This document shows, piece after piece, positions 50,622 through 58,259 of a DNA stretch of 64,000 bases (positions within the stretch are counted from its first letter, which is position 1; each line of letters starts with the position of its first letter). The stretch is taken from assembly GCA_965215005.1 (NCBI GenBank), contig CBDCCZ010000032.1, positions 1-64,000 of the forward strand. Reading direction: 5' to 3'. A program made the position numbers and the translations under genes. The notes beneath the pieces were generated by a model, which was given only the letters and a program-made list of their open reading frames with translations, did no database searches and was not told the origin of the DNA. This stretch comes from Kofleriaceae bacterium. Lineage in GTDB: Bacteria > Myxococcota_A > Polyangia > Haliangiales > Haliangiaceae.

Positions 50622-51095
50622 ATGAGGCTCTCCACCAAAACCCGGTACGGCGTCCGCGCAATCTTCGATATCGCCTATCACAACCAGGATCAGCCTGGGG
50701 TGGCGGCGCAAGCCAAAGACATCGCCCGCCGGGAAGACATCCCCCTGCGCTATCTCGAGCAGATCTTTCAGGATCTGAAACGTGCGGGGCTGGTCGAATC
50801 CAAGCGCGGCCCGCGCGGCGGCTATTACCTGAAGCGCGAGCCCCAGAACATCACGCTCGGCGACGTCGTACGCGCCCTCCAGGGCCCCATCGAAGAGATG
50901 TTCGTCGTCGAGAACACCGGCGACAAAGCGGAGCCCGTGGTGACGTCTCGCGATGTCACCGTGACGCTGTGGAAAGAGCTCGCCGACCACGTCTCCAGCT
51001 GGTTTGACAACGTGAGCATCATCGATCTGGTGCGTCGCGGCGAGGAGCTCGGCCTGCCGCGCACCGGCAGCGGCCAGCCCATGTACTTCATCTGA
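50622..51095 (+). CDS. Rrf2-family regulator (CymR/IscR-like, no Fe-S cysteines)
   Basis: MRLSTKTRYGVRA, YLEQIFQDL, SKRGPRGGY and a MYFI C-terminus; contains no Cys. Confidence 0.93.
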   Translation: MRLSTKTRYGVRAIFDIAYHNQDQPGVAAQAKDIARREDIPLRYLEQIFQDLKRAGLVESKRGPRGGYYLKREPQNITLGDVVRALQGPIEEMFVVENTGDKAEPVVTSRDVTVTLWKELADHVSSWFDNVSIIDLVRRGEELGLPRTGSGQPMYFI

Positions 51096-51099
51096 CGCC

Positions 51100-52050
51100 A
51101 TGAACCCTTCCGCACAGCGCCCGCCTACGCTGCGGCAGGTCGAGTCGCTCATCGAGCTCATCGGCCATACGCCGCTGGTCGAGCTGCGCGCCGATGACGA
51201 CGCCGGCGCGGTGTGGTGCAAGTGCGAGCAGTACAACCCCGGCGGCTCTGTCAAAGATCGAATCGCGCTGGCCATGATCGAGGATGCAGAGGCGCGCGGG
51301 CTCATCGAGCCCGGCCGCTCGACGATCGTCGAGCCGACCAGCGGCAACACCGGCATCGGCCTGGCGCTGGTGTGTGCCGCCAAAGGCTACTCGCTGATTC
51401 TCACGATGCCGGCGTCGATGAGTCTCGAGCGCCGCGCGCTCCTGGAGTCCTACGGCGCGCGCATCGAGCTCACCCCCGATGACCAAGTCATGCACGGCGC
51501 CATGGCCCGGGCGCACTCGTTGGCCGCCGACCATCCCGATTGCTTCCTGCCCGATCAATTCGGCAATCCCGCCAATCCAGAGGTGCATCGCAAGACCACC
51601 GCGGTGGAGATTCTCGAGCAGCTCGACGGCAAACGCGTCGACGCGTTCGTCTCGGCCATCGGCACCGGCGGCACCATCACCGGCGTGGGCGCGGTGCTGC
51701 GCGAGCGGTATCCCGAGGTGCGCATCATCGGCGTCGAGCCCGCCACCAGCGCGGTCATTGCCGGCGAGCCAGCGGGTCCGCACAAGATTCAGGGAATCGG
51801 CGCCGGCTTCGTCCCTGCAGTGCTCGATCGATCGGTCGTCACCGAGCTGCGCACGGTGACCGATCGCGATGCCTATCAGATGGCCAAGACTCTGGCCCGT
51901 CGCGAGGGCCTGCTGGTGGGCATCTCCGCTGGCGCCAACGTCCACGTCGCGCGGCAAGTGGCTCGCGAGCTCGGTCCCGGAAGCTGCGTGGTCACCGTGC
52001 TGTGCGACACCGGCGAGCGCTACTTCTCGCTCGAGGAGTACTTTCAGTGA
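51100..52050 (+). CDS. cysK: Cysteine synthase A
   Basis: NPGGSVKDR, EPTSGNTG, QFGNPAN, GTGGT, HKIQGIGAGF and DTGERY motifs. Confidence 0.94.
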   Translation: MNPSAQRPPTLRQVESLIELIGHTPLVELRADDDAGAVWCKCEQYNPGGSVKDRIALAMIEDAEARGLIEPGRSTIVEPTSGNTGIGLALVCAAKGYSLILTMPASMSLERRALLESYGARIELTPDDQVMHGAMARAHSLAADHPDCFLPDQFGNPANPEVHRKTTAVEILEQLDGKRVDAFVSAIGTGGTITGVGAVLRERYPEVRIIGVEPATSAVIAGEPAGPHKIQGIGAGFVPAVLDRSVVTELRTVTDRDAYQMAKTLARREGLLVGISAGANVHVARQVARELGPGSCVVTVLCDTGERYFSLEEYFQ

Positions 52051-52754
52051 CTCGCCCGCTCGCTGCCACCCACTTCGTCTTGATCGGCGCCGGTGGGTTG
52101 GGAGGGCCGTTGGCTTACGCGCTGGCCGCCGCCGGCGCACGCGCGCTCACCGTCTGCGATCCCGATATCGTCGAGCTGTCCAACCTGCAGCGCCAGGTGC
52201 AGTTCACCACCGCCGATATCGGCGCGCCCAAGGTGACCGCGCTCGCCGCTGAGCTCGGCCGCCGCGGCTATCACCGCACCCGCGCCCTACCCGTTCGCTT
52301 CGAGGCCGCCACCGCAGCCGAAATTCTGGCCGATGGCGACGTCGTCATCGACGGCTCCGACTCGCTGGTAACCAAGTTCGCCGTGAGCGATGCGCTCACC
52401 CGGCGCGGGCTACTCGGAGTCATCGCCGGCGTGCTGCGCTATAGCGGCCAAGTCATGGCGCTCGCGCCCGGACGCGCCTGCTATCGCTGCATCTTCGAAG
52501 AGGTTCCCGACGACGACGACGCGCAAAGCTGCGCGCACGCCGGCGTCCTGGGCGCCGCGGTGGCCATCATCGCCGGACACGCGGCGCTGGCGGCGCTCGC
52601 GCTAGCGCGCGGCGATGCGCGCGACGCCGGCACTCTCCTTTCCTGGAACGATGTCCGCCGCTGCGACGAGCCGCGGCGCCTCGCTCCCACTCCGCGCCCG
52701 GCCTGCCCCGCCTGCTCACAGGCCTCTGGCTGGAGTCGCCAGGAGGCTTCATGA
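52047..52754 (+). CDS. ThiF/MoeB-family E1-like adenylyltransferase lacking the N-terminal RYxR segment
   Basis: GAGGLG, ELSNLQRQ, GAPK, DGSD, CYRC, SCAHAGVLG and CPAC; the GTG start overlaps the cysK stop. Confidence 0.9.
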   Translation: MTRPLAATHFVLIGAGGLGGPLAYALAAAGARALTVCDPDIVELSNLQRQVQFTTADIGAPKVTALAAELGRRGYHRTRALPVRFEAATAAEILADGDVVIDGSDSLVTKFAVSDALTRRGLLGVIAGVLRYSGQVMALAPGRACYRCIFEEVPDDDDAQSCAHAGVLGAAVAIIAGHAALAALALARGDARDAGTLLSWNDVRRCDEPRRLAPTPRPACPACSQASGWSRQEAS

Positions 52755-57034: not shown

Positions 57035-57186
57035 AAGAGCGGCGCCTCCTGCACCTGGTGCGCCGTGGGGCGAAACCGCCCGCGGCAGCCGTGGCACCCC
57101 ACGATCGCGTGGTGTATACCGACGAAATCGATGGCCAGCGGCTCCTCGACTACATCTTCGCAGCCGACACCGTCGTCGTCTGGTGA
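57031..57186 (+). CDS. Miniature DsrH/TusB-like protein (51 aa, missed by the ORF track)
   Basis: VKERRLLHLVRRGAKPPAAAVAPHDRVVYTDEIDGQRLLDYIFAADTVVVW*; GTGA overlap with the upstream stop. Confidence 0.68.
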   Translation: MKERRLLHLVRRGAKPPAAAVAPHDRVVYTDEIDGQRLLDYIFAADTVVVW

Positions 57187-57397
57187 GCTCGATCTTTCCG
57201 GCGAGGTGTGCCCGTTCACCTTCGTGCGCACCAAGCTGGCGCTCGAAGAGCTGCCGTCGGGTGCGGTGTTGGCGGTGCGAGTCGACTACGAACCAGCCAG
57301 TCGCAACGTCCCGCGCAGCGTCCGCGAGTGGGGCCACGTGGTCGAGCGTGTAGAGGCTTGCGAGGGCGCCTGGCGCATCGTGGTGCGCAAGCGCTGA
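57131..57397 (+). CDS. TusA/SirA-family sulfur carrier
   Basis: LDLSGEVCPFTFVRTKLALEEL...NVPRS....GH. Start uncertain; overlaps the DsrH-like ORF. Confidence 0.88.
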   Translation: MASGSSTTSSQPTPSSSGELDLSGEVCPFTFVRTKLALEELPSGAVLAVRVDYEPASRNVPRSVREWGHVVERVEACEGAWRIVVRKR

Positions 57398-57404
57398 AGC
57401 GGTC

Positions 57405-58259
57405 ATGCTACGCTCGCTCGTTGTGCACGAGGCTCTAGCTGCCAAGCTCGAACATCTGCGGGCGATTCTGCGCGATTGCGGCCGCGTCTTGGTCGCGTTC
57501 TCCGGAGGCGTCGATTCCGCGTTCCTGCTCAAGGTCGCCGCCGACACCCTCGGCGCCGATTGTCACGCCCTCACCTGCGTATCAGTCACCATGGCTCGTT
57601 CCGAGGCCGACGATGCCCGTCGCCTGGGCGTCGAGCTCGGGCTCGGCGAGCGCCACCATGTCGTGGAATCGAGTGAGCTCGAGCAACCGGGCTTCGCCGA
57701 CAATCCCACCCATCGCTGCGCGCTGTGCAAGACCGAGCTGATGGAGCTGGCCGCGCCGCTGGCGGCCGAGCTCGAAATCGCCACCATCGCGCTCGGCACC
57801 AACTGCGACGACCTCGGCGATTATCGCCCCGGCATCGCGGCGGCTTCCGAGCGCGGCGCCCGTGCCCCCATGGTCGAAGCGGGACTCGACAAGGCCGAGA
57901 TTCGTGCACTTTCAAAAGCGCTCGGGCTGCGCACCTGGGACAAGCCGCAGCTCGCGTGCCTGTCGTCGCGGTTTCCGTACGGCACTCGCATCACGCCCGA
58001 GCGGCTGCGCCGCGTTGATGCCTTCGAAGATGGGCTGCGCGCCCTCGGCTTTCGCCAGCTGCGGGTCCGCTTTCACGACAGCATCGCGCGCCTCGAGCTC
58101 GACACCGAAGAGCTTGGCCGTGCGTTGGAGGCGACCACGCGAGCCGAAATTCTGGCTCTCGGCAAGCGGCTCGGCTTCACCTATGTCGCCGTCGATCTGG
58201 GCGGGTTTCGCTCGGGGTCGCTCAACGCGTTGGTGACCATCGGCCGCAAGGCATCGTGA
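57405..58259 (+). CDS. larE: LarE-family ATP-dependent sulfur insertase
   Basis: AFSGGVDS PP-loop, RCALCK, GTNCDDLGDYRPG, WDKP..ACLSSRFPYG, QLRVRFH and GFRSGSLN. Confidence 0.92.
   Translation: MLRSLVVHEALAAKLEHLRAILRDCGRVLVAFSGGVDSAFLLKVAADTLGADCHALTCVSVTMARSEADDARRLGVELGLGERHHVVESSELEQPGFADNPTHRCALCKTELMELAAPLAAELEIATIALGTNCDDLGDYRPGIAAASERGARAPMVEAGLDKAEIRALSKALGLRTWDKPQLACLSSRFPYGTRITPERLRRVDAFEDGLRALGFRQLRVRFHDSIARLELDTEELGRALEATTRAEILALGKRLGFTYVAVDLGGFRSGSLNALVTIGRKAS

What the first reader, a model, noticed from the sequence alone, without database searches (positions are those of the whole stretch)
50622..58259. 13-gene sulfur-relay operon joining three sulfur-transfer chemistries and ending in LarE
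Seen: tightly packed or overlapping Rrf2-cysK-E1a-thrC-like-Ubl-NIL-E1b-cysM-JAB-dsrE-dsrF-dsrH-tusA-larE. Established: Ubl+E1+CysM+JAB is the thiocarboxylate route to cysteine (mycobacterial CysO/MoeZ/CysM/Mec+). TusA and DsrEFH/TusBCD relay persulfide. LarE inserts sulfur into the nickel-pincer cofactor precursor. Inference: neither E1 has a rhodanese domain, so TusA/DsrEFH may be the persulfide donor that charges the Ubl, with branches to Cys, homocysteine and LarE. No desulfurase, sulfite reductase or TusE/DsrC is in the window. Parts of this cluster are known in deltaproteobacteria; I cannot confirm that the full combination is undescribed.
Basis: partly seen in the sequence, partly recalled or inferred. 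Interest (0 to 1): 0.75.

Follow-up and report, generated by a model that had tools for sequence, protein, structure and literature searches.

The report
Sulfur-carrier operon with split E1 enzyme
This is a known kind of bacterial operon for making sulfur amino acids on a small ubiquitin-like carrier, but its carrier-activating enzyme looks divided into an active and an inactive partner protein, as in some ubiquitin-system enzymes of our own cells.

Summary
The cluster is real. It has 14 genes, not 13, tightly packed behind a conserved promoter and probable Rrf2 operator, in a Haliangiales-type myxobacterium. Most of it is known: Ubl, JAB and CysM resemble CysO/Mec/CysM, and the thrC-like gene with its Ubl matches the MetM/MetO homocysteine route. 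TusA replacing rhodanese was proposed for such operons in 2006. LarE is a [4Fe-4S]-type enzyme found in 39 of 41 genomes, with or without the Ubl.

E1a keeps the P-loop, catalytic Asp, Zn cysteines and the Cys after them but lacks the N-terminal arginine-finger helix. E1b keeps that helix (Arg18) and has lost the rest. All 30 genomes with truncated E1a carry E1b; none of the 18 loci with an intact E1 does. One genome fuses the two. A complex model scores 0.92 against 0.00 for the best control, possibly from likeness to MoeB/ThiF homodimers.

Best reading: a two-gene active/inactive E1 heterodimer, convergent with SAE1/SAE2 and NAE1/UBA3, that charges sulfur carriers. Binding, substrate and sulfur donor are untested, and the arginine finger is non-essential in MoeB/ThiF.

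The parts
50561..50566 (+). Conserved -35 hexamer TTGACA of the operon promoter
   Evidence: TTGAC upstream of rrf2 in 17 of 17 upstream regions extracted; the strict sigma-70 scan found no full site
50603..50617 (+). Palindrome-like probable Rrf2 operator near the transcription start
   Evidence: Motif in 12 of 16 relatives, 36-47 nt after TTGAC; a matrix built without the window ranks this site first of 30 hits in the genome. Binding is inferred.
50622..51095 (+). Rrf2-family regulator (CymR/IscR-like, below both cut-offs)
   Evidence: start at 50622 fits relatives
51100..52050 (+). CysK cysteine synthase A
   Evidence: TIGR01139 409.6 bits, cut-off 350.95
52047..52754 (+). E1a: active-type adenylation subunit lacking the N-terminal arginine-finger helix
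   Evidence: P-loop Gly14/16/19, Asp38, Arg49, Lys62, Asp105, Cys145/148/162 in 29 of 29 aligned; matches ThiF from residue 28 and MoeB from residue 30 onward
52751..54016 (+). Threonine-synthase-like PLP enzyme, probable MetM-type homocysteine synthase
   Evidence: TIGR00260 hit; with the Ubl in 15 of 15 genomes; a second threonine synthase exists on C54; not compared with MetM itself
54022..54294 (+). Ubiquitin-like sulfur carrier (MetO/CysO-like), ends in Gly-Gly
   Evidence: PF02597, NF041918; many relatives carry one extra residue after GG or a fused NIL
54295..54546 (+). NIL domain protein
   Evidence: PF09383; found in 9 of 39 genomes, always with the thrC-like gene
54546..55043 (+). 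E1b: inactive-type E1 subunit; keeps the RYxR helix (Arg18 = ThiF Arg11/MoeB Arg14), lacks the P-loop, SNLxRQ and Zn motifs
   Evidence: an alternative start lies at 54543
55030..55971 (+). CysM-like cysteine synthase
   Evidence: TIGR01138 339 bits, below the 394 cut-off; with the Ubl in 26 of 26 genomes
55961..56449 (+). JAB/JAMM metallopeptidase (Mec-like)
   Evidence: PF14464; E, HSH and D motif residues kept in all 35 rows aligned
56446..56763 (+). DsrE/TusD-like sulfurtransferase, invariant Cys
   Evidence: PF02635; Cys invariant in 23 of 23 and aligned to the Cys of solved DsrE (weak E-value 0.006)
56783..57034 (+). DsrF-like protein (DsrE/F fold, no Cys)
   Evidence: hhalign to the DsrE alignment 75%, E 2.5e-5; fold search Z 10.7 YchN, 9.3 DsrEFH
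57031..57186 (+). Small conserved protein in the dsrH position; family unconfirmed
   Evidence: no Pfam, PDB-profile or Atlas support
57128..57397 (+). TusA/SirA persulfide carrier (CPF motif), the only TusA found in the genome; start uncertain
   Evidence: PF01206; Cys-Pro kept in all 24 rows
57405..58259 (+). LarE of the CXXC-C ([4Fe-4S]) type
   Evidence: TIGR00268 290.6 bits; SGGxDS, CxxC and third Cys; motif definition from PMC9283937

Best explanation
An Rrf2-repressed sulfur-assimilation operon built around a two-gene E1. E1a binds ATP and the carrier and adenylates its C-terminal glycine. E1b is a catalytically dead paralogue that pairs with E1a in the MoeB/ThiF dimer geometry and supplies the N-terminal helix and arginine finger that E1a lost, giving one active site per heterodimer. 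JAB exposes the Gly-Gly end of the Ubl and probably of the MoaD-MoaE fusion. Persulfide from IscS, carried by TusA and the DsrE-like protein, converts the adenylate to the thiocarboxylate; MoeZ elsewhere in the genome is an alternative route. The thiocarboxylate feeds CysM (cysteine) and the MetM-like enzyme (homocysteine from O-phosphohomoserine); CysK uses free sulfide. LarE is co-regulated and takes sulfur on its [4Fe-4S] cluster, donor open. Shown here: gene content, motif gains and losses, co-occurrence, fusion, folds. Modelled: the heterodimer. Inferred: every sulfur-transfer step.
For: Complementary motifs: arginine finger in 26 of 28 aligned E1b and 120 of the 120 listed homologues; P-loop and SNLxRQ in only 1 of those 120. 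Of 30 P-loop-bearing E1 ORFs from handle loci, only the intact one (L026) has the RYxR helix upstream. All 30 genomes with truncated E1a carry E1b; 6 lack both; G035 has an intact E1 and no E1b. None of the 18 loci typed as intact E1 has E1b. E1a-E1b fusion in one ORF in L139. Complex model 0.92 versus best control 0.00; the mark was reached by 116 of 157 solved and 2 of 215 mismatched pairs; runs agree in at least 96% of contacts; partner pLDDT at least 85; interface includes E1b 14-19 and E1a 44-52. Precedent for an inactive domain supplying the arginine: PMC10557695, PMC13139853. CysM and thrC-like genes are never found without the Ubl. sat sits in the operon in 5 relatives, and an unrelated lineage (L057) has sulfite reductase-tusA-cysH-sat-JAB-cysK-thrC-Ubl-intact E1-NIL-larE.
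Against: The complex pass may come from memory of solved MoeB/ThiF homodimers, and close cousins of true partners also pass. [quoted passage not shown] E1b evolves fast and two Ubl-less genomes have lost its arginine (L132, L137). The fusion is from one 71%-complete assembly, whose E1a lacks the Cys162 equivalent. Seven genomes keep E1a/E1b without the cluster Ubl, so the Ubl cannot be the only reason the pair is kept. Most genomes also have a MoeZ-sized intact E1. The thrC-like protein was not compared with MetM, and a cyanobacterial MetM-like ThrC behaved as threonine synthase/deaminase (PMC12172450). This CysM is closer to enterobacterial CysM (E 1.7e-71) than to the mycobacterial enzyme (5.9e-59).
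Confidence: 0.62

Rival explanations
1. E1a works as an ordinary homodimer. E1b is a non-catalytic binder with another role, for example a chaperone, an inhibitor that titrates E1a or MoeZ, or an adaptor for TusA/DsrE.
For: The arginine finger is non-essential in MoeB/ThiF and absent from E. coli TcdA. E1b lengths vary widely (124-219 aa). An intact MoeZ is a second possible partner.
Against: Strict co-retention and co-loss with truncated E1a and absence beside intact E1s; the conserved residues are those of the trans-acting helix; fusion.
Confidence: 0.2
2. The conserved core (E1a, E1b, JAB, DsrE/F/H-like, TusA) is mainly a general charging hub for MoaD and ThiS, or a direct sulfur supply for LarE. 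The amino-acid synthases and the Ubl are add-ons.
For: The core persists next to larE in genomes with no Ubl, cysM or thrC-like gene (G004, G005, G018, G028). There the ThiS-family hits are MoaD-MoaE fusions and ThiS. In G028, E1a is the only ThiF hit and the MoaD-MoaE fusion the only ThiS hit. G022 and G037 keep Ubl, E1a, E1b, JAB and larE without cysM or thrC-like. TtuB-TtuA is a precedent for thiocarboxylate-to-[4Fe-4S] transfer.
Against: G028 also lacks mnmA, so its assembly is probably less complete than stated. larE persists with none of these genes nearby (G021, G036) or with only rrf2-cysK (G034, G038). The unrelated MepK-like gene is conserved next to larE too, so adjacency alone is weak. 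T. maritima LarE was recharged by IscS plus cysteine in vitro.
Confidence: 0.3
3. E1b is a decaying duplicate (pseudogene in progress) with no function.
For: Loss of all catalytic motifs, long branches, graded truncation from about 250 to 120 aa.
Against: Open frame and conserved RYxR, GQ and L-x-A-x-G-x-G positions across several families; confident E1 fold (pLDDT 88.8; Z 13.8 to MoeB, rmsd 3.0 over 152 residues); kept even in the 1.6-Mb assembly G028.
Confidence: 0.04
4. The Ubl is conjugated to proteins (sampylation/urmylation-like), with JAB as deconjugase, rather than or besides carrying sulfur.
For: The Ubl passes the SAMP1 model cut-off (65.3 vs 60); E1a keeps the Cys after the crossover loop in 29 of 29; the architecture resembles canonical E1s.
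Against: No E2 or Cys domain in the cluster; the neighbours are sulfur-amino-acid synthases that never occur without the Ubl.
Confidence: 0.08

Closest known systems
Class 4c/4e sulfur-metabolism operons of Iyer, Burroughs and Aravind 2006 (PMC1779556, passages read)
   Same: ThiS/MoaD-like Ubl, JAB, rhodanese-less E1 and SirA/TusA, with cysteine synthase; sat in the operon in 5 relatives.
   Different: Two complementary E1 genes; DsrE/F-like genes, MetM-like enzyme, NIL and larE added; reductases lie elsewhere in this genome.
MetM/MetO/Mec/MoeZ homocysteine route of Streptomyces albulus (seen only through passages of 10.1101/2024.10.14.618325 and PMC12172450)
   Same: Threonine-synthase homologue directly followed by a sulfur-carrier Ubl; JAB present.
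   Different: The activator in the cluster is not MoeZ; regulation is by Rrf2, not the SAM riboswitch reported for S. albulus; sequence identity to MetM was not measured.
Mycobacterial CysO/CysM/Mec/MoeZ (recalled; the solved CysM is hit)
   Same: Ubl, cysM and JAB together; cysM never found without the Ubl.
   Different: This CysM scores higher against enterobacterial CysM; O-phosphoserine use was not tested.
SAE1/SAE2 and NAE1/UBA3 heterodimeric E1s; yeast Tcd1-Tcd2; bacterial BilD (PMC12355090, PMC13139853, PMC10557695, passages read)
   Same: An inactive adenylation domain keeps the arginine that completes the single active site of an active partner.
   Different: Here it is two small bacterial genes with no Cys domain, UFD or E2, in a sulfur-carrier context. 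BilD is one polypeptide in phage defence. The tree places E1a and E1b near an intact myxobacterial E1, so the likeness is convergent (no eukaryotic rows were in the tree).
IscS-TusA-TusBCD-TusE-MnmA and IscS-TusA-MoaD of E. coli; DsrEFH (PMC5372717, passages read)
   Same: TusA with Cys-Pro motif, DsrE-like protein with invariant Cys, DsrF-like partner.
   Different: No TusE/DsrC found in the genome; third subunit unconfirmed and short.
[4Fe-4S] LarE of Thermotoga maritima (PMC9283937, passages read)
   Same: SGGXDS and CXXC-C motifs; larB, larC and a Lar_N protein elsewhere in the genome.
   Different: Sits in a sulfur-carrier operon, away from larB/larC; not the sacrificial type implied by the TIGR00268 name.

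Membership tests
MoeB/ThiF homodimeric E1 (E1a) | P-loop, SNLxRQ, Lys, Mg-binding Asp, Zn cysteines | tested here: met
MoeB/ThiF homodimeric E1 (E1a) | N-terminal RYxR arginine-finger helix in the same chain | tested here: not met
   absent in 29 of 30 P-loop ORFs, present only in L026; profile matches ThiF from residue 28
Inactive adenylation domain-type subunit (E1b works like) | E1 fold with arginine finger, no nucleotide-binding motifs | tested here: met
Heterodimeric active/inactive E1 | Physical heterodimer with one active site | tested here: inconclusive
   model 0.92 vs best control 0.00, possibly from likeness to solved homodimers; no experiment
Canonical eukaryotic E1 (SAE/NAE/UBA1, BilD) | Inserted catalytic-cysteine domain and an E2 partner | tested here: not met
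   E1a is 235 aa and colinear with ThiF; no E2 among the 14 genes
MetM/MetO | Threonine-synthase homologue followed by a sulfur-carrier gene | tested here: met
   15 of 15 genomes; a separate threonine synthase exists on C54
MetM/MetO | Orthology to S. albulus MetM | not tested
   no MetM sequence was obtained; the primary paper is not held
MetM/MetO | O-phosphohomoserine + thiocarboxylate gives homocysteine | not testable with these tools
   needs assay; a ThrB_alt-like kinase below cut-off is in 14 of 15 genomes, canonical ThrB not found
CysO/CysM/Mec | CysM of the O-phosphoserine, thiocarboxylate-using type | tested here: inconclusive
   tied to the Ubl but closer to enterobacterial CysM
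DsrEFH/TusBCD | DsrE/TusD with active Cys | tested here: met
DsrEFH/TusBCD | DsrF/TusC subunit | tested here: met
   fold only: 5 of the top 10 rows are titled DsrE/DsrF/TusBCD; orthology not shown
DsrEFH/TusBCD | DsrH/TusB subunit | tested here: inconclusive
   likeness to DsrH is recalled only
DsrEFH/TusBCD | DsrC/TusE acceptor in the genome | tested here: not met
   0 matches in the 92.8%-complete genome
[4Fe-4S] LarE | SGGXDS plus CXXC-C | tested here: met
   window and relatives; definition
NPN cofactor pathway | larB, larC and a LarA-family client in the genome | tested here: met

The most novel reading that the evidence does not exclude
Haliangiales-type myxobacteria independently evolved a two-gene, active-plus-inactive heterodimeric E1 for sulfur-carrier activation, by duplication of an intact rhodanese-less E1. 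A living series is visible: intact E1, full-length dead copy, minimal dead copy, re-fused single chain. It mirrors the route proposed for SAE1/SAE2, NAE1/UBA3 and UBA1. In the boldest form, the relay also feeds [4Fe-4S] LarE, whose cofactor goes to ElbC, the LarA homologue in the ether-lipid operon.
Probability: 0.5. Interest if true: 0.75.

Novelty: new variant of a known kind. Interest (0 to 1): 0.6.

Why it matters
A 2023 structural paper states that known bacterial E1-like proteins other than the single-chain BilD are homodimers (PMC10557695). A two-gene active/inactive E1 in a metabolic operon would be a minimal, tractable model of how asymmetric E1s arise, testable with two proteins under 240 aa. 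Cultured Haliangium ochraceum carries E1b. The operon also offers a direct test of whether a Ubl thiocarboxylate or TusA/DsrE persulfide recharges [4Fe-4S] LarE. Annotation matters too: many E1b homologues are labelled adenylyltransferases although they lack the ATP-binding motifs.

Tried and rejected
Expression: no RNA holder listed, which says nothing either way. Strict promoter scan: 0 sites; the promoter came from comparison of relatives. Wider Rrf2 regulon: no strong site upstream of the 7 genes checked (sulfite/nitrite reductase, cysE-like, second cysK, iscS, moeZ, larB, mnmA). MetX anticorrelation: MetX-like hits in 3 of 15 genomes with the thrC-like gene and 11 of 26 without, none above cut-off; too weak to use. 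G028 as a clean natural experiment: down-weighted because mnmA was not found in it. DsrH identity: Pfam, PDB profile and Atlas gave nothing. Phylum survey with the E1b profile (301 genomes): most hits were N-terminal halves of MoeZ-sized frames; stand-alone full-length hits among the 150 rows listed were from the window's order plus one other family; 162 matches were not listed, so the range is not settled. Tree: quick method, midpoint root, long E1b branches; two intact E1s were mis-typed as B; 4 untyped rows, 1 short row and 2 duplicate loci were left out; it cannot fix the order of events. My notebook named Arg15 as the arginine finger; alignment to ThiF shows it is Arg18. Papers not held: Hasebe 2024 and Burroughs 2009 on the E1 superfamily, which may already describe inactive bacterial E1s. 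Earlier scan findings: nothing returned. Rejected: 'LarE is sacrificial' (it has CXXC-C) and 'the thrC-like gene is the threonine synthase' (a second one exists; not excluded as a side activity).

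
Full report
OBSERVATION. The window is G000:C32:1-64000. The closest named relatives of its thrC-like gene are Kofleriaceae/Haliangiales-type Myxococcota. Junctions are -14 to +19 nt except before tusA. Family scans confirm all names except dsrF and dsrH. The dsrF product folds as DsrE/F-like (pLDDT 94; Z 10.7 to YchN and 9.3 to DsrEFH). 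The dsrH-position ORF is conserved but unassigned. A TTGAC hexamer precedes rrf2 in 17 of 17 upstream regions extracted, and a palindrome-like motif follows it in 12 of 16 relatives. A matrix built without the window ranks the window's own site first in the genome. This supports one Rrf2-controlled unit; transcription was not observed.

GENOME CONTEXT. Elsewhere in G000 lie a rhodanese-fused MoeZ near iscS (C18), a sulfite/nitrite reductase (C7), PAPS-reductase-family genes, a second threonine synthase (C54), larB-larC (C18), one Lar_N protein (C58), a MoaD-MoaE fusion and ThiS. DsrC, MetX and canonical ThrB were not found (assembly 92.8% complete).

SYNTENY. Of 41 genomes searched, 39 gave loci around the thrC-like gene or larE, annotated with local profiles. 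The full order is kept on one contig in G000, G006, G015, G019 and G025, the last with sat inserted. Counts of 39: E1b 32, truncated E1a 30, JAB 34, Ubl 28, cysM 26, thrC-like 15, NIL 9, dsrE+dsrF+tusA 23, larE 38. cysM and the thrC-like gene always come with the Ubl; NIL always with the thrC-like gene; dsrE-dsrF-tusA always with E1b and JAB. The reverse does not hold: 9 of 32 E1b genomes lack that block (genome-wide TusA search), and 7 keep E1a/E1b with no cluster Ubl. LarE (39 of 41), LarC (40 of 41) and Lar_N (38 of 41) are near-universal, and G039 lacks all three. sat lies just before larE in 5 relatives. An unrelated lineage (L057) has a full sulfate-assimilation version with one intact E1 and larE at the end. 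These genomes are kin and many are fragmented, so the counts are not independent events.

THE TWO E1s. E1a has the P-loop, Asp38, Arg49, Lys62, Asp105 and Cys145/148/162 in 29 of 29 aligned sequences. It begins where ThiF residue 28 and MoeB residue 30 begin, so it lacks the helix carrying the arginine finger (ThiF Arg11, MoeB Arg14; PMC13139853). E1b aligns to ThiF from residue 2-3 including RYxR. It keeps that arginine (Arg18) in 26 of 28 aligned and 120 of the 120 listed homologues, and only 1 of those 120 has a P-loop or SNLxRQ. It still folds as an E1. All 30 genomes with truncated E1a have E1b. The two E1b genomes without E1a in the fetched loci are cut by contig ends and have N-terminally short ThiF matches on other contigs. 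Six genomes lack both. G035 has an intact E1 in the E1a position and no E1b, and none of the 18 loci typed as intact has E1b. L139 encodes E1a and E1b in one frame. In a quick tree E1a forms one side of a branch (SH-aLRT 92), the true E1b rows lie together, and the intact G035 enzyme sits between them and other intact E1s; this fits duplication and subfunctionalisation but does not prove it. The complex model scored 0.92 against a best control of 0.00. The mark was reached by 116 of 157 solved and 2 of 215 mismatched pairs; runs agree in at least 96% of contacts; partner pLDDT is at least 85; the interface includes E1b 14-19 and E1a 44-52. Because MoeB/ThiF homodimers are solved, this shows likeness, not binding. 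Against necessity: the arginine finger is reported non-essential in MoeB and ThiF, as is that of yeast Tcd1, which is instead needed for partner stability. E1b may therefore matter mainly as the structural half of the dimer.

MECHANISM. Shown: anatomy, motifs, co-occurrence. Modelled: heterodimer. From established chemistry: JAB trims the carrier, E1 adenylates it, persulfide converts it to the thiocarboxylate, and PLP enzymes use it. The thrC-like gene plus Ubl matches MetM/MetO (10.1101/2024.10.14.618325), with the caution that a cyanobacterial homologue did not behave fully as MetM (PMC12172450). TusA as donor has precedent in E. coli MoaD (PMC5372717) and was predicted for rhodanese-less E1 operons in 2006 (PMC1779556); MoeZ is an alternative here. 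LarE is CXXC-C type. A Ubl-thiocarboxylate donor would parallel TtuB-TtuA, but larE persists without the Ubl, and the unrelated MepK-like gene is as faithful a neighbour, so that branch is about one in three.

WHAT IS KNOWN. The operon type, the Met and Cys branches and the TusA idea are in print. I found no description of a two-gene active/inactive sulfur-carrier E1 in bacteria in searches or in the passages read. PMC10557695 calls the other known bacterial E1s homodimers. The library lacks most subscription papers, and the main survey of the E1 superfamily could not be read. Papers seen as passages: 10.1101/2024.10.14.618325, PMC12172450, PMC12355090, PMC11354881, PMC2888440, PMC9283937, PMC5372717, PMC1779556, PMC10557695, PMC13139853, PMC9131029, PMC12611868, 10.64898/2026.06.23.733905. 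PMC8832034 (JAMM cleaves MoaD-MoaE) was seen as a search listing with the start of its abstract. Mycobacterial CysO/Mec details and the DsrH likeness are recalled. No supplements were read.

VERDICT. The notable feature is the complementary E1a/E1b pair. New variant of a known kind, interest 0.6.

Noticed in passing
L202:1869-8521 (G000:C58:7368-14003): The genome's only Lar_N protein lies between a HAD hydrolase and an ElbD-type FAR/AMP-binding/ACP/acyltransferase protein. That is the position of elbC, 'unknown function' in PMC9131029. Its closest solved relatives are LarA-like NPN enzymes 9q2u/9q3j. ElbC may be the NPN client that explains near-universal larB/C/E here; orthology to M. xanthus ElbC was not tested.
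   Followed up: partly
window 58256-59218 (+): MepK/DUF882 peptidase gene directly after larE, conserved in most relatives; start uncertain; may share the transcript.
   Followed up: partly
window 39029-40087 (-): mnmA lies about 10.5 kb upstream of the operon; a possible acceptor for TusA/DsrE sulfur without TusE.
   Followed up: no
L138:8277-9269, L140:3230-4294, L056, L065, L108, P0116: In-frame fusions E1a-Ubl, Ubl-NIL and Ubl-E1b occur in relatives. Ubl-NIL and Ubl-E1b would need JAB cleavage. The E1a-Ubl cases may be chance read-through with an internal start.
   Followed up: no
L028:7205-7912, L043, L047, L048, L049: Longer E1b forms (about 230-260 aa) keep part of the C-terminal Zn region but no P-loop: intermediates of degeneration.
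   Followed up: partly
L132, L137 (G005, G018): In these Ubl-less genomes E1b has His at the arginine-finger position and JAB scores are low, suggesting relaxed selection.
   Followed up: partly
window 50213-50563 (+): 116-aa ORF with two repeats of a CPDGxCIGxxGxDGRCxxC motif just upstream of the promoter; no Pfam hit; possible metal-binding protein.
   Followed up: no
window 47350-49141 (-): EF-P-like gene (read from sequence) followed by an EpmA/class II lysyl-tRNA-synthetase-like gene (PF00152).
   Followed up: no
G000:C10:103758-105145: Another GG-ending Ubl next to an uncharacterised 390-aa gene; a further possible E1 substrate.
   Followed up: no
G000:C23:71846-73087 (-): Longer ThiF-family protein with Cys-rich C-terminal part, unrelated to this operon.
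   Followed up: no
L067:13452-16432: A larB-like, Lar_N, larE trio about 2 kb downstream of thrC-like-Ubl in a Verrucomicrobiota record.
   Followed up: no
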